IMG/VR virus record: IMGVR_UViG_3300025570_000007
DNA: 64,000 bases
DNA from: a virus
Direction: 5' to 3' (one strand)
A program made the position numbers and the translations under genes. This document shows, in pieces, positions 2,898-30,182 of this stretch; the first letter of the stretch is position 1, and each line of letters starts with the position of its first letter. The notes under the pieces were generated by a model. That model was not told the origin of the DNA. It saw only the letters and a program-made list of their open reading frames with translations, and did no database searches.

Positions 2898-5223
2898 CTC
2901 TCCAGTTTATTGATATTTCGGGCGGCGCTTTTAAAGTTACGCCTGGAAGTACTAAGTTGTTTTCCATTATCTCCTGTGCTATTGGTGCAAATTCTTTTGC
3001 TTGATCTTTTCTTACGTTTATAATAAGTTGATCATGCACCTGTGCTTGTACTACAGCATCGATACCCATCTCTATAGCTTTTCTGTTGATTTTTAATGCT
3101 GCTCTGTTTACAACGGATGCAGCTAAACTCTGTAACTGGTAGTTTAAGCAGTTATTTAGTCCATTCTTATAATCTCTATATAATTGGAGTACTTCTGCTT
3201 TTCCATGCACCTCTTCAAGACGTTTTCTAAATCTCCAATCTAGCATTTGATCGCCTACCTTGCTAAAGATTACTTTCACCTTAGGTAGGTGTCTAATACG
3301 CCCTACATAGTTTTTGATATAACCATGTTCCTTAACTTGCACTCTTGATGCTTCCATCCACTCTTTTAGTTGAGGAAATCCATCTAAATACCCCTTAACA
3401 AGCACCTTAGCTTCTTTTTGAGGTATATCCAAAGTTTTACCTAGTGCAAAATCTTCCATTCCGTAGGGTACACCAAGTGCATATCCTTTTGCTTTATTTC
3501 TCTTTACTGGATCAATTTTCTTTAAGAATACTGGAGATTTAGTGTCGGGTGAAACTCCGTTAGGGTAGGTTTTTGTGTCTTGTTCTAATTTTTCAGTCTT
3601 AATTGCAATTGTTGAATAGAAATCCCATCCGTTATTGAAAATATCTTGAAGGTTCTTATCTCCTGTAACTGAGGCGAAGCAATGTGGTTCTAGTGATGTG
3701 TAATCCGCATCAATCAGTAACCTACCTTCTCCTGATATTAGAAAAGCCCTTACTAAGTTTGTATAGTTAACGATAATGGGTACATCTTCTCCTTCTTCTT
3801 TCGGTTTTGGTAGTTGTTGTGCATCTGAACCGTACCTTCCGGAAACTGTTCCGTTCTGTTTATAGTAGAAGTAGTATCTACCGTCTTCGTTGTTATCTAA
3901 AAAACGGTCAATGTATGTCGACTTTATCTTAAGCAGTTTGTTATATATTCTAAGATTTTCTGCCCAGTCGTACGTTTTGGATAGATGCTCTATCATATCC
4001 ATATCAAACTGTTCCTTACCCTTCTTAGTCTTACTCTTAGCCTTAACCCCCATATAGTTAAATACAATGTCTCCTAAGTGATCTTTTGACTGTATATTAA
4101 CTAATTCACCATCATTCTCTTCCTTCCAGAGCGACATAGATATCCTTGCTAACTCAACTTCATCCAGCAGGTTATTATCTCCTGTCTGTAAAAACTCTTT
4201 AACCTTACTGTCTTCAAGCTCTTCTATGTTCTTCTGAGTGAGTGAGTATTTACCTGTCTTTTCTGATCTTGGCAGTGGCAGTGAGTACCTATTTACCAGT
4301 TCTTGAGCCCAATTGCCTTTATGGTTAGGCGGATACTTTTTAAAAGCTGTATCCATTACCCATTCCTTAGCTTCGGGCCTAGCCAGTATACTGCCTATTA
4401 CTACTTTCTTATTTTCCTCAAGATCTTTAGTTATTTCAATTAGAGTCTTATTAAGTAGTTCCATATCTAAATCCACTCCGAAATCCTCCATTGGAATAGT
4501 TACCTCTCTGTAGATTGGCATAACTTCTTCGTTAAAGAAGAAATCTTCTAACCCCTCTTTTTCTAGTACTTTAAGAAAGTGGTAACATAGCCTGTACGTT
4601 AAATCGGTATCAGCTGATGCATATTCTGAAAGTATTTCTAGGTCTGCTTTGAAGATTTCGTAGTTCGCCTTTGTTACACTTCCTCCGTTTTTCTTAATAG
4701 ACTCTTTTAACCTTATTTGCTCTTCGTTAGCTGATTTTTCAACATCTAGTCCGATCTTATCTTGAACAGAGATAGCTAAAGGCTTTAATCCAAAGACTCC
4801 CATACCTGCTCCTTCTTCTTGAACTGTGTGAACAAGTAAGGCTGTATCAACCCAGAGCGATGGTAGTAGGTTAACCCCTAAATCGTTTTTTGTGTAACGG
4901 CAGTCAAAGGAAGCATTATGCATTATAAGCTTTTTACCTATTAACATACCCAGTAACTTAATTGAAAGCTCTCTAGCACTAGTACCGTTAATGAACTGTT
5001 CTTCTAGTACTTGCTTCTCAGCATTCCATACAAGAATAGGTAGGTAAAAACCTACTCCAAGTTTACCCGTAACTGACCATCCTATTACTTTACCTTTCCT
5101 CATATTTAACGAGGTCGTCTCTGTATCGTAGGCTAGTGCTTCCGAATCTGCTATATGTTGAAAGAGTAATCTTAGGGTCTCTTCATCCTGTACTGTGTAA
5201 TACTCTTTTTTTATTTCTTGCAT
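2887..5223 (-). CDS. polA: Family A DNA polymerase with 3'-5' exonuclease domain
   Basis: Exo motifs DTETT, HNASFD, YASAD; polymerase motifs DADYTSLE, RNKAKGYALGVPYG, QVHDQL. Confidence 0.93.
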   Translation of the reverse strand: MQEIKKEYYTVQDEETLRLLFQHIADSEALAYDTETTSLNMRKGKVIGWSVTGKLGVGFYLPILVWNAEKQVLEEQFINGTSARELSIKLLGMLIGKKLIMHNASFDCRYTKNDLGVNLLPSLWVDTALLVHTVQEEGAGMGVFGLKPLAISVQDKIGLDVEKSANEEQIRLKESIKKNGGSVTKANYEIFKADLEILSEYASADTDLTYRLCYHFLKVLEKEGLEDFFFNEEVMPIYREVTIPMEDFGVDLDMELLNKTLIEITKDLEENKKVVIGSILARPEAKEWVMDTAFKKYPPNHKGNWAQELVNRYSLPLPRSEKTGKYSLTQKNIEELEDSKVKEFLQTGDNNLLDEVELARISMSLWKEENDGELVNIQSKDHLGDIVFNYMGVKAKSKTKKGKEQFDMDMIEHLSKTYDWAENLRIYNKLLKIKSTYIDRFLDNNEDGRYYFYYKQNGTVSGRYGSDAQQLPKPKEEGEDVPIIVNYTNLVRAFLISGEGRLLIDADYTSLEPHCFASVTGDKNLQDIFNNGWDFYSTIAIKTEKLEQDTKTYPNGVSPDTKSPVFLKKIDPVKRNKAKGYALGVPYGMEDFALGKTLDIPQKEAKVLVKGYLDGFPQLKEWMEASRVQVKEHGYIKNYVGRIRHLPKVKVIFSKVGDQMLDWRFRKRLEEVHGKAEVLQLYRDYKNGLNNCLNYQLQSLAASVVNRAALKINRKAIEMGIDAVVQAQVHDQLIINVRKDQAKEFAPIAQEIMENNLVLPGVTLKAPPEISINWRDGH

Positions 5224-24480: not shown

Positions 24481-24563
24481 ATCTCTTATTATCCAATATG
24501 TCAATGATCTCACTACTATTATACCATAAATATACGAAGTTCTACTTTACCTACAAACTTTTT

Positions 24564-24824: not shown

Positions 24825-24948
24825 TTAGGTTCTTCTTCTACTATTTTTTCTGTTGTTGCGTTCATTGTAACTGATTTTTAAATTAATCTTTTAACTGTTA
24901 TTGAGACCTAAATATAATGATTAGATCTCAATTAACCAACTTTCTTGT

Positions 24949-25500
24949 TTAGAAAAGTAAATAAGGTTTCCACTCTTCCGGAATGTATGTTGTCTTCTTT
25001 AGTAACATTAAATAGTGTGGACGTTGTGGTTTTGGTATATTTTTTGTATACTCTTCTACCATTAGATCCGCTTTTTCCCCATTACATTTCTTACAAGCTG
25101 TTACTAGATTATCCCATGCGTTTGGTCCTCCTTTTGATTGAGGAATAACGTGATCTAACGTAAGTAACTTTTTTGTAGTCTGTCCACAATATACACACTC
25201 GAAATTATCTCTTTTATAGATATTCTCTCTTGTTAGTGGTACCTTTTGAAAGTTAAGTTTCACATAAGTGAATACTCTAATAATTGATGGTTTATTAATC
25301 TCTAAATTTGGATTAACAACACCGAATGTCTCTGGGTATTCTGCTATAATGTCTGCATTACCTTTAAAAGAGATTACGAAAGCTCTTTCAGTAGTGATAA
25401 TGCTTCTAGGAATATAGCTAGAATCGACTACCAGAGTTTTACTGTAGCGATTTTTCATAATTTCTACTTTTTGGGTTAATGAAACATTTTCTTTTTCCAT
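24949..25500 (-). CDS. HNH endonuclease (McrA-like)
   Basis: RDNFECVYCG, TLDHVIPQSKGG, NLVTACKKCN. Confidence 0.9.
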   Translation of the reverse strand: MEKENVSLTQKVEIMKNRYSKTLVVDSSYIPRSIITTERAFVISFKGNADIIAEYPETFGVVNPNLEINKPSIIRVFTYVKLNFQKVPLTRENIYKRDNFECVYCGQTTKKLLTLDHVIPQSKGGPNAWDNLVTACKKCNGEKADLMVEEYTKNIPKPQRPHYLMLLKKTTYIPEEWKPYLLF

Positions 25501-27001: not shown

Positions 27002-27230
27002 TACCTAGTTTTCGTACTAGGTAAACGTGAATCCGTGCTCCCTTAGAAACACCTAAATTCAACAGCTGCTAGGCTGCTAATGCAAAGTTGTCGTTTGCGT
27101 AAATACTAATCTACTATCATCCACGTTTTCCATTGTCAAAACCAGTCGGCCCCATGGTCTTAAAAGTCTCATAGTGGAGCCGGAGAGTATCGAACTCTCG
27201 TCCAACGAAATGTCAATAATTATCAACGAT
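27002..27230 (-). ncRNA. ssrA: Circularly permuted (two-piece) tmRNA
   Basis: 3' piece GGACGAGAGTTCGATACTCTCCGGCTCCA (27175-27203) precedes the 5' end GGGGCCGACTGGTTTTGAC (starts 27153); tag ANDNFALAA* at 27069-27098; G3:U70; outer ends approximate. Confidence 0.88.
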
Positions 27231-27606: not shown

Positions 27607-27933
27607 TTAATACTCTTTATATATTGCTAAATTATTTTCTACTAACCAATCACTAACGTTAACTCCTTCTATATACACTTCAGCTAAGTACCTTCCGTAC
27701 TTACCTTTCTTATCTTTTCGGGTCTTAATAGTAACTTCCTTACCTAGTACTAATTCTCTTAACCTATCTCTTGAAAATTTACCTGCTTCTTTTTCTTCTC
27801 CTCTAACTTCAGGAGCATCAATTCGTAGAATTCTTAACGGTTCTGTAAATGTCATGTTAAATCCTAAATCGATTTGTGCTGTTACAGTATCACCATCGTA
27901 AACTTTAATAATTTTTGCTTTGTAAGTATACAT
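27607..27933 (-). CDS. Thermonuclease (SNase-like)
   Basis: KVYDGDT, LRIDAPE, GKYGRYLA. Confidence 0.9.
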   Translation of the reverse strand: MYTYKAKIIKVYDGDTVTAQIDLGFNMTFTEPLRILRIDAPEVRGEEKEAGKFSRDRLRELVLGKEVTIKTRKDKKGKYGRYLAEVYIEGVNVSDWLVENNLAIYKEY

Positions 27934-28835: not shown

Positions 28836-28972
28836 AAAATTAAGAGAAAGTTTAGAAGAGCTGTTTTGGTTGCAGATACGGGATTTGAACCCGTCACCTA
28901 TTGATTTGAAGTCAATTGCTCTACCATGTGAGCTAATTTGCGAAGTAACTCTTTCCATTACTACTTAATTTT
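28836..28972 (-). ncRNA. Y RNA-like element G enclosing a complete tRNA with UCA anticodon (tRNA 28867-28942)
   Basis: AAGTAGTAATGGAAAGAGTTACTTCG-[tRNA, loop CTTCAAA, ACCA]-GCTCTTCTAAACTTTCTCTTAA. Confidence 0.8.
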
Positions 28973-29457: not shown

Positions 29458-29549
29458 CGGAAGATGGCGGATTCGAACCCCCACATCTGTTACAATACTC
29501 GCTTTTCAAGAGCGCCGCCGCTACCCAGAATCTTTCGGCTTAATCTTCC
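29458..29549 (-). tRNA. tRNA-Ser(TGA), enlarged D loop
   Basis: Loop CTTGAAA, long variable arm, G73. Confidence 0.8.
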
Positions 29550-29594
29550 TTGTACGCTACCTCCCTCCCTAAGGAAGGAAGTACCGTTATTTTA

Positions 29595-29617
29595 ATTATC
29601 CAATATGTCAATGATCT
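29595..29617 (-). repeat. 23-nt direct repeat (second copy 24488-24510), boxA-like
   Basis: AGATCATTGACATATTGGATAAT is identical at the heads of two tRNA sub-arrays. Confidence 0.7.
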
Positions 29618-29631
29618 TATACTTTTTTACT

Positions 29632-29670
29632 AAAAAAAAATCCCGAATCTTTATTTGATCCGGGATTTTT
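29632..29670 (-). terminator. Intrinsic terminator/attenuator upstream of the tRNA array
   Basis: ATCCCGGATC/GATTCGGGAT stem plus U-tract. Confidence 0.75.
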
Positions 29671-29698
29671 ATATATTGTTATATGTTGTTATATCATA

Positions 29699-29854
29699 TC
29701 AATATCCCGTATCTATTATTAATGGCTGGTTATACTTGCAAATTAAATTACTCGGTACACTAAAGCCATACCATTCCACAATCGAATTTACCCTTTTACT
29801 AAAGGACTGCATCGAGCTGCTTAAAATTGAATGTATGTTACGAATTGTTTTCAT
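29699..29854 (-). CDS. Putative attenuator leader peptide (51 aa)
   Basis: MKTIRNIHSILSSSMQSFSKRVNSIVEWYGFSVPSNLICKYNQPLIIDTGY*, between a promoter and a terminator. Confidence 0.55.
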   Translation of the reverse strand: MKTIRNIHSILSSSMQSFSKRVNSIVEWYGFSVPSNLICKYNQPLIIDTGY

Positions 29855-29872
29855 TGTTCTTGTTATCTTAGA

Positions 29873-29905
29873 TAAATATACGAAGTTTTCCTTTCCTAGC
29901 CAACT
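29873..29905 (-). promoter_or_regulatory. Bacteroidota-type promoter
   Basis: AGTTG-N20-TATATTTA. Confidence 0.65.
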
Positions 29906-29909
29906 CTTT

Positions 29910-30182
29910 CTATTTATTTTTTTTCTTTCTTTTTTCCTTAGTTATATTTGCCGGTACTATTAATTCTGATTCTAGTAAATCTCCTACTAGTGTCTCCATT
30001 CCTTTCATAAGAAATTGTACCTTGTCCTCTATCTTCTCAAAGTCTGTATGTTGATTTCTTTTTAAAGTTTCAAGCTTTGATTCAAGGGCTTTAACCTTCC
30101 TTCCTGATTTTATACAAAATACTACAAAGTATACTATTAGTACTAAAAATCCTCCTAAAATAAATGCTAATGTTGCGCTCAT
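29910..30182 (-). CDS. Membrane-anchored hypothetical protein
   Basis: N-terminal TM helix. Confidence 0.55.
   Translation of the reverse strand: MSATLAFILGGFLVLIVYFVVFCIKSGRKVKALESKLETLKRNQHTDFEKIEDKVQFLMKGMETLVGDLLESELIVPANITKEKRKKKNK

What the first reader, a model, noticed from the sequence alone, without database searches (positions are those of the whole stretch)
29595..29905. Candidate pan-tRNA-sensing attenuator controlling the tRNA operon
Seen: promoter, then a 51-codon ORF using 19 of 20 amino acids (all but Ala) and diverse codons (five different Ser codons, TCG/CCG/ACG/AGG), then a strong terminator, a boxA-like site and the first tRNA. The last codons (ACG GGA TAT) contain CGGGAT, complementary to the terminator 5' arm ATCCCG. 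Known: ribosome-coupled attenuation logic. Inference: complete translation masks the antiterminator and transcription stops, while stalling from loss of almost any tRNA (for example host tRNase defence) permits readthrough into the tRNA/tmRNA array.
Basis: partly seen in the sequence, partly recalled or inferred. Interest (0 to 1): 0.78.

Follow-up and report, generated by a model that had tools for sequence, protein, structure and literature searches.

The report
Leader-ORF attenuator before phage tRNA array
A small translated reading frame joined to a terminator/antiterminator RNA switch sits in front of this Bacteroidota phage's tRNA gene array and is conserved in at least 41 related phages, so the phage probably raises tRNA transcription when ribosomes slow down, a form of control I could not find described for tRNA genes.

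Summary
In order there are a Bacteroidota-type promoter, a 51-codon ORF, a 14-bp terminator, an rrn-boxA-like site and an uncalled tRNA-Ser(UGA). DNA-motif scans of viral contigs found 41 distinct homologous cassettes, all directly upstream of syntenic tRNA arrays. The reading frame is open in every one, while both other frames are closed in every one. Substitutions fall equally on all three codon positions, so the constraint is on translation and RNA, not on the protein. The last codons always complement the terminator's 5' arm, and they change together with it across seven terminator classes (permutation p<5e-5). The transcript cut before the 3' arm folds into this antiterminator in 41/41 variants. 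A ribosome at the stop codon would cover it. The best reading is therefore a ribosome-dependent attenuator: completed translation terminates, lagging translation reads through. "Pan-tRNA" sensing is weaker: all 20 amino acids occur in 35/41 leaders (about 1% by chance), but this is effectively one inherited observation. Most relatives also carry a second promoter after the terminator. This window, L062 and L046/L056 do not. No expression data could be obtained. The scan has noted similar tRNA-array attenuators in other phage genomes.

The parts
29872..29905 (-). Promoter P1, Bacteroidota type: AGTTG (29905..29901), 20-nt spacer, TATATTTAT (29880..29872). The ATG lies 18 nt after the -7 box.
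   Evidence: Sequence. It is one of at least 12 AGTTG-N(18-21)-TATATTT sites, all on the gene strand and each followed by an ATG or a tRNA. A near-identical 40-nt copy precedes tRNA-Leu at 24558. Homologous promoters precede the leader in relatives.
29699..29854 (-). Leader ORF: 51 codons, ATG to TGA, 19 amino-acid kinds.
   Evidence: Homologous ORFs of 44-51 codons occur in 41 distinct variants. Frame 0 has 0 stops; frames +1 and +2 have 120 and 193 stops and are closed in every variant. All full-length nhmmer homologues keep the frame open. There is no Pfam family and no protein homologue by word search.
29704..29709 (-). Arm 1 of the antiterminator: CGGGAT in codons ACG GGA TAT, 3-8 nt upstream of the stop codon.
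   Evidence: It complements ATCCCG at 29666..29661. Duplex -11.6 kcal/mol, reached by 1/1000 shuffles. It changes together with the terminator arms across the family.
29673..29705 (-). Inner AU-rich hairpin (H2), with the TGA stop codon in its 5' arm. It is present in both the antiterminator and the terminator states.
   Evidence: Folds. The conserved TGATA...ACATAT arrangement is seen in all variants. The stop codon is TGA in 39/41 leaders, against 15% of the genome's long ORFs.
29632..29670 (-). Intrinsic terminator: 5' arm 29670..29657, loop 29656..29650, 3' arm 29649..29636, T-run to 29632.
   Evidence: hairpin -17.9 kcal/mol. Six of its 12 pairs show compensatory changes in the family alignment, and 97% of cells are paired.
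29595..29616 (-). rrn-boxA-like element (motif B): GATCATTGACATATTGGATAAT.
   Evidence: A second copy lies at 24509..24488, just before tRNA-Leu. The motif is identical in dozens of related phages between a promoter and a tRNA, or between tRNAs. The same 19-mer lies between the spacer tRNA and 23S rRNA in Capnocytophaga rRNA operons, and a close variant follows the 16S promoter.
29560..29581 (-). GC-rich hairpin (CTTCCTTCC / GGAGGGAGG, loop TTAG) between the boxA-like site and the tRNA.
   Evidence: Read from the sequence. Not studied further.
29458..29549 (-). Probable tRNA-Ser(UGA) with an enlarged D-arm and a long variable arm. It is the first gene of the array and ARAGORN does not call it.
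   Evidence: blastn matches annotated tRNA-Ser of Vibrio phages. Rfam gives a sub-threshold tRNA-clan match at 29459..29549. ARAGORN calls tRNA-Ser(tga) at the syntenic position in relatives. L030 and L069 share the same unusual 5' half.
24488..24558 (-). Second copy of the promoter plus the boxA-like element, directly before tRNA-Leu(tag) with no ORF or terminator between. It marks an internal start of the array outside attenuator control.

Best explanation
The region is a ribosome-dependent transcription attenuator placed in front of the phage's tRNA array.

Proposed sequence of events:
1. Host RNA polymerase starts at P1, and the 51-codon leader is translated.
2. As the polymerase moves on, the last codons of the leader (arm 1, CGGGAT) can pair with the 5' arm of the terminator (arm 2), closing a long hairpin around the stop-codon hairpin H2. 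This antiterminator forms before the 3' arm is transcribed.
3. If a ribosome has kept pace and sits at or near the TGA stop, its footprint covers arm 1. Arm 2 then pairs with arm 3 and transcription stops at the T-run.
4. If the ribosome lags or stalls anywhere upstream, because of a missing or cleaved tRNA, lack of an amino acid, or generally slow translation, or if no ribosome is loaded, the antiterminator holds. Polymerase then runs through the boxA-like site, where it probably becomes termination-resistant as in rRNA operons, and into tRNA-Ser and the array.

Shown in silico: the parts themselves, selection for an open frame without protein-type constraint, alternative pairing that changes together with the terminator arms, and the order of folding.

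Inferred: translation of the leader, the ribosome footprint logic, and the physiological signal. That the leader samples (nearly) all 20 amino acids fits a general sensor of decoding capacity, but it is not needed for the mechanism and is only weakly supported as a design feature.
For: - **Family.** 41 distinct homologous cassettes (promoter, ORF of 44-51 codons, terminator) were found, each directly upstream of a syntenic tRNA array.
- **Translation is selected.** Frame 0 has 0 stops in 41/41 variants; the other two frames have 120 and 193 stops and are closed in all. An unbiased nhmmer search found no homologue with a broken frame. ORF length varies from 44 to 51 codons.
- **The protein is not constrained as such.** Differences at codon positions 1/2/3 are 1611/1511/1632. 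Conserved blocks are invariant at synonymous sites too.
- **The arm 1 motif sits in different codon registers.** CYGGG appears as CTG GGA, ACC GGG and ACG GGA.
- **Arm 1 changes together with arms 2 and 3.** The pairings are CCCGG/CCGGG, CUCGG/CCGAG, CCCAAAUC/GAUUUGGG, AUCCAAUU/AAUUGGAU and GGUACC/GGUACC. Cognate duplexes average -11.0 against -9.0 kcal/mol for permuted pairs (p<5e-5, 31 distinct combinations). The table for the G/A and C/U pair is 13/10/3/3, Fisher p=0.003. Ordinary gene-end/terminator pairs give -5.1 kcal/mol.
- **Folding order.** Transcripts cut before the 3' arm fold into the antiterminator in 41/41 variants with the ORF end alone, and in 40/41 with the whole leader.
- **This window.** Antiterminator -12.1, terminator hairpin -17.9 kcal/mol. 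Masking a ribosome footprint at TGA leaves arm 2 free.
- **No second promoter in three lineages.** This window, L062 and L046/L056 have no promoter-like site between terminator and first tRNA, so those tRNAs need readthrough.
- **A second, non-homologous leader family** (L003, L009; also L051) has an in-ORF copy of its own terminator's 3' arm. In L009 a tRNA starts about 12 nt after the T-run. These peptides are enriched in the amino acids of the locus's tRNAs (P = 4e-7 to 7e-5).
Against: - There are no RNA or ribosome data.
- At least 33 of 41 relatives carry a promoter (P2) after the terminator. L007 and L004 types even have another small gene in between. There the array does not depend on readthrough.
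- The terminator state is more stable than the antiterminator by about 8 kcal/mol on average, so kinetic trapping must be assumed.
- No anti-antiterminator is present. An untranslated leader therefore reads through, which differs from trp-type attenuators.
- There are no runs of regulatory codons.
- The permutation and Fisher tests ignore the relatedness of the sequences.
- The internal helix H1 is conserved mostly by invariance, with few compensatory changes, and is not kept in this window.
- Transcription-translation coupling in Bacteroidota is little studied (own knowledge).
Confidence: 0.6

Rival explanations
1. It is an ordinary small-gene cassette. The ORF encodes a functional micro-protein with its own promoter and terminator, like the many individually promoted small genes of this phage. 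The terminator merely insulates the tRNA array, which is transcribed from its own promoter or promoters. The complementarity between the ORF end and the 5' arm has no regulatory role.
For: The frame is open and some residues recur (W, SLCGD, GF, YNNEPKQ) in most relatives. Most relatives have a promoter P2 after the terminator. L007 and L004 types have another small-gene cassette in between. The genome holds many promoter-plus-small-ORF units.
Against: There is no excess of changes at third codon positions, and the recurrent residues lie in blocks that are invariant at synonymous sites. The C-terminal residues vary while the nucleotide motif persists in different registers. Arm 1 changes together with the terminator arms. 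This window, L062 and L046/L056 have no promoter after the terminator. This window's peptide lacks the recurrent W, C and D positions.
Confidence: 0.12
2. It is a terminator/antiterminator RNA switch set by something other than the ribosome on this ORF, for example a protein, a small RNA, an uncharged tRNA or a metabolite binding the conserved blocks. The open frame would be secondary.
For: Conserved blocks are constrained at the nucleotide level and form a helix (12 pairs with one bulge in the core group; 82-98% of cells paired). The alternative pairing itself does not need translation.
Against: The frame is open in all 41 variants and both other frames are closed in all, despite lengths of 44-51 codons. 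The ATG sits at the distance from the -7 box that is usual for genes in this genome. The stop codon and arm 1 are always within one ribosome footprint of each other. There is no match to any riboswitch, T-box or other Rfam family at gathering score. This window does not keep helix H1.
Confidence: 0.13
3. It is a leader-ORF attenuator that senses a specific event rather than general decoding. Candidates are slow termination at the conserved UGA (RF2 level, or the phage's own UCA-anticodon tRNA reading through) or a nascent arrest peptide.
For: TGA is the stop in 39/41 leaders, against 15% genome-wide. The window encodes a tRNA with anticodon UCA. In this window, opal readthrough would place the ribosome at a TAA 4 nt before the CCCGG core of the 5' arm, where it would block the terminator. 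The family shares the peptide motif YNNEPKQ.
Against: In L004, L007, L013 and L017 the TGA is followed at once by a second stop, and in most others the next stop lies 20-27 nt before the arm, so the readthrough geometry is not conserved. TGA lies inside the conserved 5' arm of hairpin H2, which explains its conservation. The shared peptide motif coincides with nucleotide-invariant blocks and is absent from this window.
Confidence: 0.1

Closest known systems
Leader-peptide transcription attenuators of amino-acid operons (trpL, hisL, leuL, thrL, multivalent ilvGMEDA leader; textbook knowledge)
   Same: A short translated leader ORF, an intrinsic terminator before the regulated genes, a mutually exclusive antiterminator whose 5' strand is under the ribosome's control, and readthrough when the ribosome stalls for lack of charged tRNA.
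   Different: The regulated genes are tRNAs, not biosynthetic enzymes. There are no runs of one regulatory codon; the leader samples 19-20 amino acids. There are only two alternative helices and no 1:2 anti-antiterminator, so an untranslated leader is predicted to read through rather than super-attenuate. The element is in a phage of Bacteroidota. The Rfam Thr_leader model scores 23 bits against a threshold of 55, so it is not a member of that family.
uORF or ribosome-mediated attenuators that sense general translation stress, such as antibiotic-responsive leaders found by Term-seq and the E. coli topAI-yjhQ uORF (PMC12121999, PMC5314783, as listed)
   Same: A short ORF reports ribosome stalling of many causes and thereby switches expression of downstream genes.
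   Different: The known cases control resistance or toxin genes and usually use very short uORFs, and some act through Rho. Here the ORF is 44-51 codons and the target is the supply side of translation itself (tRNAs).
rRNA operon control region: tandem promoters plus boxA antitermination (E. coli rrn P1/P2 with leader and spacer boxA; textbook knowledge)
   Same: A boxA-like element sits about 20-25 nt after a promoter's -7 box and ahead of stable-RNA genes. Its 19-nt core is identical to the spacer element of Capnocytophaga rRNA operons. Most relatives have two promoters in tandem (P1 and P2).
   Different: The upstream promoter is gated by a leader ORF and a terminator instead of by ppGpp or initiating-NTP control. 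Binding of Nus factors is untested.
T-box riboswitches (tRNA-sensing leaders of aminoacyl-tRNA synthetase and amino-acid genes)
   Same: A terminator/antiterminator decision that reports tRNA charging status.
   Different: A T-box binds the uncharged tRNA directly through a specifier loop and the T-box sequence and is not translated. No T-box match was found here, and a conserved ORF is present.

Membership tests
Leader-peptide (ribosome-mediated) transcription attenuator | Short ORF in the 5' leader that is translated | tested here: inconclusive
   The frame is open in 41/41 variants and the other frames are closed in 41/41. All nhmmer homologues are intact. The ATG lies at the usual distance from the promoter.
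Leader-peptide (ribosome-mediated) transcription attenuator | Intrinsic terminator between the leader ORF and the regulated genes | tested here: met
   A 14-bp stem plus T9 at 29670..29632. It is conserved, with compensatory changes, in the family.
Leader-peptide (ribosome-mediated) transcription attenuator | Antiterminator that excludes the terminator and whose upstream strand lies where the ribosome can mask it | tested here: met
   Arm 1 ends between 10 nt upstream of the stop codon and the stop codon itself. It pairs with the 5' arm in 41/41 truncated folds. Cognate pairings beat permuted ones at p<5e-5.
Leader-peptide (ribosome-mediated) transcription attenuator | Regulatory codons enriched for the amino acid(s) sensed | tested here: not met
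   The leader has no codon runs; it holds 19-20 amino-acid kinds, each mostly once or a few times. Enrichment matching the downstream tRNAs is seen only in the separate L003/L009 leader family.
Leader-peptide (ribosome-mediated) transcription attenuator | Regulated genes lie in the same transcription unit, with no promoter after the terminator | tested here: inconclusive
   No promoter-like site is found in this window, L062 or L046/L056. A P2 promoter is present in at least 33 of 41 relatives. Promoter calls are by motif only.
rrn-type boxA antitermination site | Sequence matching the host's rRNA-operon boxA, placed in the transcribed leader after a promoter | tested here: met
   The 19-mer is identical to the element between the spacer tRNA and 23S in five Capnocytophaga rRNA operon contigs. 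A related AGTTCATTAAGAAATATTGATAATA lies after the 16S promoter. In the phages it lies about 20-25 nt after the -7 box.
rrn-type boxA antitermination site | Binding of NusB/NusE and termination-resistant elongation | not testable with these tools
   This needs biochemistry or genetics.
T-box riboswitch or any other Rfam cis-regulatory family | Match to the family's covariance model at its gathering score | tested here: not met
   Only tRNAs and a permuted tmRNA pass in the window. In the leader the best hits are ohsC at 26 bits (threshold 50) and Thr_leader at 23 bits (threshold 55).
Known small-protein family (Pfam) | Significant match of the peptide to a profile | tested here: not met
   No Pfam family matches the window's peptide or L020's. 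Word-based and tblastn searches found nothing.

The most novel reading that the evidence does not exclude
Phages with full tRNA arrays run them under feedback from a decoding-capacity sensor. The sensor is a leader ORF that samples essentially every amino acid, so loss of any tRNA species (for example through host anticodon nucleases) or general starvation stalls the test ribosome, opens the antiterminator and boosts transcription of the whole replacement tRNA set through an rrn-like boxA antitermination path. Together with the codon-matched leaders before partial arrays (L003/L009), this would make leader-ORF attenuation a general rule of phage tRNA gene control.
Probability: 0.3. Interest if true: 0.85.

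Novelty: new variant of a known kind. Interest (0 to 1): 0.72.

Why it matters
Phage tRNA arrays are now seen as countermeasures to host defences that cleave tRNA (PMC11555353 and PMC12409363, listed), yet how their expression is controlled is largely unknown. A conserved, sequence-defined switch that couples tRNA transcription to ribosome progress would be the first attenuator known to act on tRNA genes. It would show the classic trp-type logic reused on the supply side of translation, and it would do so in Bacteroidota, where leader-peptide control is barely explored.

The model makes clear, cheap predictions for start-codon, arm 1 and compensatory mutants. It also gives a motif set (promoter, leader, terminator, boxA) for annotating such arrays in metagenomic phages. 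The boxA finding further suggests that these phages borrow the host's rRNA antitermination machinery for their tRNA arrays.

Tried and rejected
- **Peptide searches found nothing.** I tried tblastn against phages, the word-indexed protein search and back-translated patterns in viral contigs. The neighbouring 270-aa protein gave no useful relatives either. Relatives came only from DNA-motif scans of motif B and of the terminator.
- **Motif B as a sigma-70 promoter: rejected.** It contains TTGACA, but no -10 box lies at a conserved spacing, and the motif matches the rrn boxA instead.
- **Opal readthrough by the phage tRNA(UCA) as the conserved signal: rejected.** The next in-frame stop is immediate in four variants and variably placed in the rest.
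- **Amino-acid diversity as independent evidence in diverged lineages: not significant** once positions shared with the family consensus are fixed (P = 0.05-0.46). I count it as one ancestral observation of about 1% probability.
- **Codon matching to the phage's own tRNAs: not informative,** because the array covers nearly every amino acid.
- **Helix H1 inside the ORF:** well paired in the core group but with few compensatory changes, and absent from this window, so I treat it as a possible pause or structural element only.
- **No second copy of the leader** exists in the 104-kb genome record.
- **Rfam and Pfam gave no membership**.
- **Literature:** two searches found no description of attenuators on phage tRNA arrays. 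The held library is incomplete.
- **Tools:** One script call returned no answer and was repeated.
Full report
**What is there**

The feature lies on the minus strand. Reading 5' to 3':

| Element | Window coordinates | Notes |
|---|---|---|
| End of upstream gene | stop at 29910 | 90-codon membrane-type ORF |
| Promoter P1 | 29905..29872 | AGTTG-N20-TATATTTAT |
| Leader ORF | 29854..29699 | 51 codons, ATG to TGA |
| AU-rich hairpin H2 | 29705..29673 | holds the stop codon in its 5' arm |
| Terminator | 29670..29636, T-run to 29632 | 14-bp stem, T9 |
| Motif B | 29616..29595 | 22 nt, GATCATTGACATATTGGATAAT |
| GC-rich hairpin | 29581..29560 | not studied further |
| tRNA-Ser(UGA) | 29549..29458 | not called by ARAGORN |
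| tRNA-Gln | from 29336 | array of 23 called tRNAs plus a permuted tmRNA follows |

The uncalled tRNA-Ser matches annotated phage tRNA-Ser genes, and ARAGORN calls it at the syntenic site of relatives.

The window is bases 32001-96000 of a 104-kb, 36% G+C viral contig with all genes on one strand.

**Promoter and host type**

The promoter is not a lone consensus hit. The pattern AGTTG, about 20 nt, TATATTT(A/G) occurs at least 12 times on the gene strand, each time shortly before an ATG or a tRNA. This is the -33/-7 architecture of Bacteroidota promoters (own knowledge; an earlier scan note on this genome pointed me to it, and I verified the pattern).

A near-identical 40-nt copy sits before tRNA-Leu(tag) at 24558. 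There it is followed within about 12 nt by a second copy of motif B and then directly by the tRNA. So the same promoter type drives tRNAs directly elsewhere in the array. At the finding's site, the ORF and the terminator are interposed between promoter and motif B.

**Relatives**

Protein searches with the peptide failed. Scanning viral contigs for motif B and for the terminator core succeeded.

These scans gave phage contigs with syntenic arrays (Ser-Gln-Pro-Lys-Val ... Thr-Gly-Glu-Ala-Asp-Met). They yielded 41 distinct versions of the same cassette: promoter, ORF of 44-51 codons beginning MK.IQNIH, a stop embedded in TGATA, an AU hairpin, a terminator, then the array (alignment A1).

An unbiased nhmmer search recovered the same set plus two more full-length copies. 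It found no copy with a broken frame.

**Is the ORF translated, and is the peptide the point?**

- Frame 0 has no stop in any of the 41 variants. Frames +1 and +2 have 120 and 193 stops and are closed in every variant. ORF length ranges from 44 to 51 codons. That is strong selection for an open frame.
- Differences between variants fall equally on codon positions 1, 2 and 3 (1611/1511/1632).
- The recurrent residues (W, SLCGD, GF, YNNEPKQ) lie in blocks that are invariant at synonymous sites as well. Other segments vary at all three positions.
- Two of these blocks pair with each other (12 pairs and one bulge; 82-98% of cells paired but few compensatory changes).

The pattern is that of a translated RNA element, not of a protein under purifying selection. 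No Pfam or Rfam family matches.

**The switch**

In every variant the last codons carry a sequence complementary to the terminator's 5' arm, that is, a near-copy of the 3' arm. Two observations show the constraint is on RNA rather than protein:

- The motif sits in different codon registers (CTG GGA, ACC GGG, ACG GGA) with variable C-terminal residues.
- It changes when the terminator changes:

| Terminator 5' arm | ORF end |
|---|---|
| CCCGG | CCGGG |
| CUCGG | CCGAG |
| CCCAAAUC | GAUUUGGG |
| AUCCAAUU | AAUUGGAU |
| GGUACCCGG | GGUACCG |

Quantitatively:

- Cognate duplexes average -11.0 kcal/mol, against -9.0 for permuted pairings (p<5e-5 over 31 distinct combinations). All seven terminator classes prefer their own partner. 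The 2x2 table for the covarying pair gives Fisher p=0.003. These tests do not correct for shared ancestry.
- Ordinary genes followed by terminators in the same loci give -5.1 +/- 3.6 kcal/mol (n=14).
- In this window, 1 of 1000 shuffles of the ORF end reaches the observed -11.6 kcal/mol.
- Transcripts cut just before the 3' arm fold with the 5' arm paired to the ORF end in 41/41 variants, and in 40/41 when the whole leader is included. So no upstream segment competes for arm 1.
- Full-length RNAs prefer the terminator by about 8 kcal/mol on average.
- In this window the antiterminator is -12.1 and the terminator hairpin -17.9 kcal/mol. Masking a ribosome footprint centred on the TGA leaves the 5' arm free for the terminator.

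**Mechanism inferred**

A ribosome that reaches the stop codon while polymerase is transcribing the terminator covers arm 1, and transcription ends. A ribosome delayed anywhere in the leader, or absent, leaves the antiterminator in place, and polymerase continues.

This differs from trp-type attenuators in having no anti-antiterminator. An untranslated leader should therefore read through, which is a distinctive and testable prediction.

**Link to the tRNAs**

- Every homologue lies at the head of a tRNA array.
- In at least 33 of 41 variants a second promoter P2 lies between terminator and motif B. Four more have at least a -7 box, and L007 and L004 types have an extra 45-codon gene there. 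In these phages the attenuator can only add P1-derived transcripts to a P2 baseline. The arrangement recalls the tandem promoters of rRNA operons.
- In this window, in L062 and in L046/L056 I find no promoter-like site after the terminator. Compared with L030, this window appears to have lost about 45 nt there. In these three lineages the first tRNAs must depend on readthrough, which is hard to reconcile with a purely constitutive terminator.
- A separate, non-homologous leader family turned up in L003 and L009 (25-28 codons, core FSKHSKSFKFWS). Each ORF contains a copy of its own terminator's 3' arm (GTTCGGA opposite TCCGAAC). In L009 the tRNA starts about 12 nt after the T-run. The peptides are enriched in exactly the amino acids of the locus's tRNAs (Lys, Phe, His, Ser, Trp; P = 4e-7 to 7e-5). 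L051 shows the same in-ORF arm (GATTGGGT opposite ACCCAATC), with weaker matching (P = 0.056).
- This recurrence of the design supports a tRNA-related sensing role. The scan's earlier notes report similar 'leader-peptide attenuators of phage tRNA arrays' in other genomes. I treat those as leads, not evidence.

**How 'pan-tRNA' is it?**

All 20 amino acids occur in 35 of 41 leaders and 19 in the rest. A random or real 46-residue window does this about 1% of the time. For this window alone, 19 of 51 is ordinary (12-17%).

The property is largely inherited. With positions shared with the family consensus held fixed, the diverged lineages are not surprising (P = 0.05-0.46). Only 18 of 41 leaders have an internal Met codon.

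The diversity fits a full-repertoire sensor in front of a full-repertoire array, but it counts as one observation. Any ORF of this length would report general elongation speed in any case.

**Motif B**

The exact 19-mer occurs in Capnocytophaga rRNA operons between the spacer tRNA and 23S rRNA. A close variant (AGTTCATTAAGAAATATTGATAATA) follows the 16S promoter's -7 box by about 22 nt. That is the position of boxA in rRNA operons, and the core resembles bacterial boxA (own knowledge).

The phages place it about 20-25 nt after a -7 box or between tRNAs.

The layout also makes sense. The regulated terminator lies upstream of the site where polymerase would become termination-resistant.

**Rivals**

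- **An ordinary small-protein cassette** is disfavoured by the codon-position pattern, the matched changes of arm 1 with the terminator arms, and the lineages without P2.
- **A switch set by a factor other than the ribosome** is disfavoured by the strict frame conservation and the fixed proximity of stop codon and arm 1.
- **Sensing of UGA decoding** (39/41 stops are TGA, and the window encodes a tRNA with anticodon UCA) is not conserved in geometry. The TGA is explained by its place in hairpin H2.

**Limits**

Everything is computational. No transcript or ribosome data could be obtained. Promoters are motif calls. Host identity is inferred only from promoter type and the boxA match. The statistical tests treat related sequences as independent.

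Literature searches in the held library found no description of such an element on tRNA genes. The nearest published logic is stall-sensing uORFs and attenuators.

**Verdict**

The attenuator reading is well supported by comparative evidence. The 'pan-tRNA' specificity and exclusive control of the array are not established.

It is a new variant of a known kind of mechanism. It is shared by a sizeable group of uncultured Bacteroidota phages and parallels elements the scan has noted elsewhere.

Noticed in passing
window 29595-29616 and 24488-24509 (minus strand); L081, L083, L085, L087, L089: The 22-nt motif after the terminator is an rRNA-operon boxA-like element. Its 19-nt core is identical to a site between the spacer tRNA and 23S rRNA in Capnocytophaga, and a variant follows the 16S promoter. 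These phages seem to borrow the host's rrn antitermination signal for their tRNA arrays, which also points to Flavobacteriia-like hosts.
   Followed up: partly
L003 (two units, minus strand, about 3200-3500), L009 (about 4930-5090), L051 (4832-5000): A second, non-homologous family of 25-28-codon leaders sits before partial tRNA arrays. Each ORF holds a copy of its terminator's 3' arm, and the peptide core FSKHSKSFKFWS uses only the amino acids of the locus's tRNAs (Lys, Phe, His, Ser, Trp).
   Followed up: partly
window 29458-29549 (minus strand): Probable tRNA-Ser(UGA) with an enlarged D-arm, missed by ARAGORN and below the Rfam threshold. L030 and L069 share the same unusual 5' half.
   Followed up: partly
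window 28867-28942 (minus strand): ARAGORN labels this tRNA 'SeC' with anticodon UCA; it is probably an opal-reading tRNA. 39 of 41 leader ORFs end in TGA, but readthrough geometry is not conserved.
   Followed up: partly
window 27069-27227 (minus strand): A permuted tmRNA (Rfam RF04321, 64 bits against a threshold of 47) lies inside the tRNA array.
   Followed up: no
L045 7979-8200: A natural variant in which the leader ORF and the terminator's 5' arm are intact but the 3' arm and the region up to the first tRNA-like genes are deleted. It amounts to a terminator-less version of the cassette.
   Followed up: no
window 24949-25500 and 27607-27933 (minus strand): An HNH endonuclease gene (with its own promoter at 24940) and a staphylococcal-nuclease-like gene are interspersed among the tRNAs.
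   Followed up: no
L007 4265-6086: Three tandem paralogous genes (195-215 aa) just upstream of the leader cassette encode proteins built of repeats of about 20 residues (..TPITSLPQGLTVGG..). This window has different genes at that position.
   Followed up: no
L086/L091 (contig CALMEO010000055.1, 104.6 kb, binned as 'uncultured bacterium'): This contig holds a promoter plus motif B and a full leader cassette, so it is probably a phage contig of this group placed in a bacterial bin.
   Followed up: no
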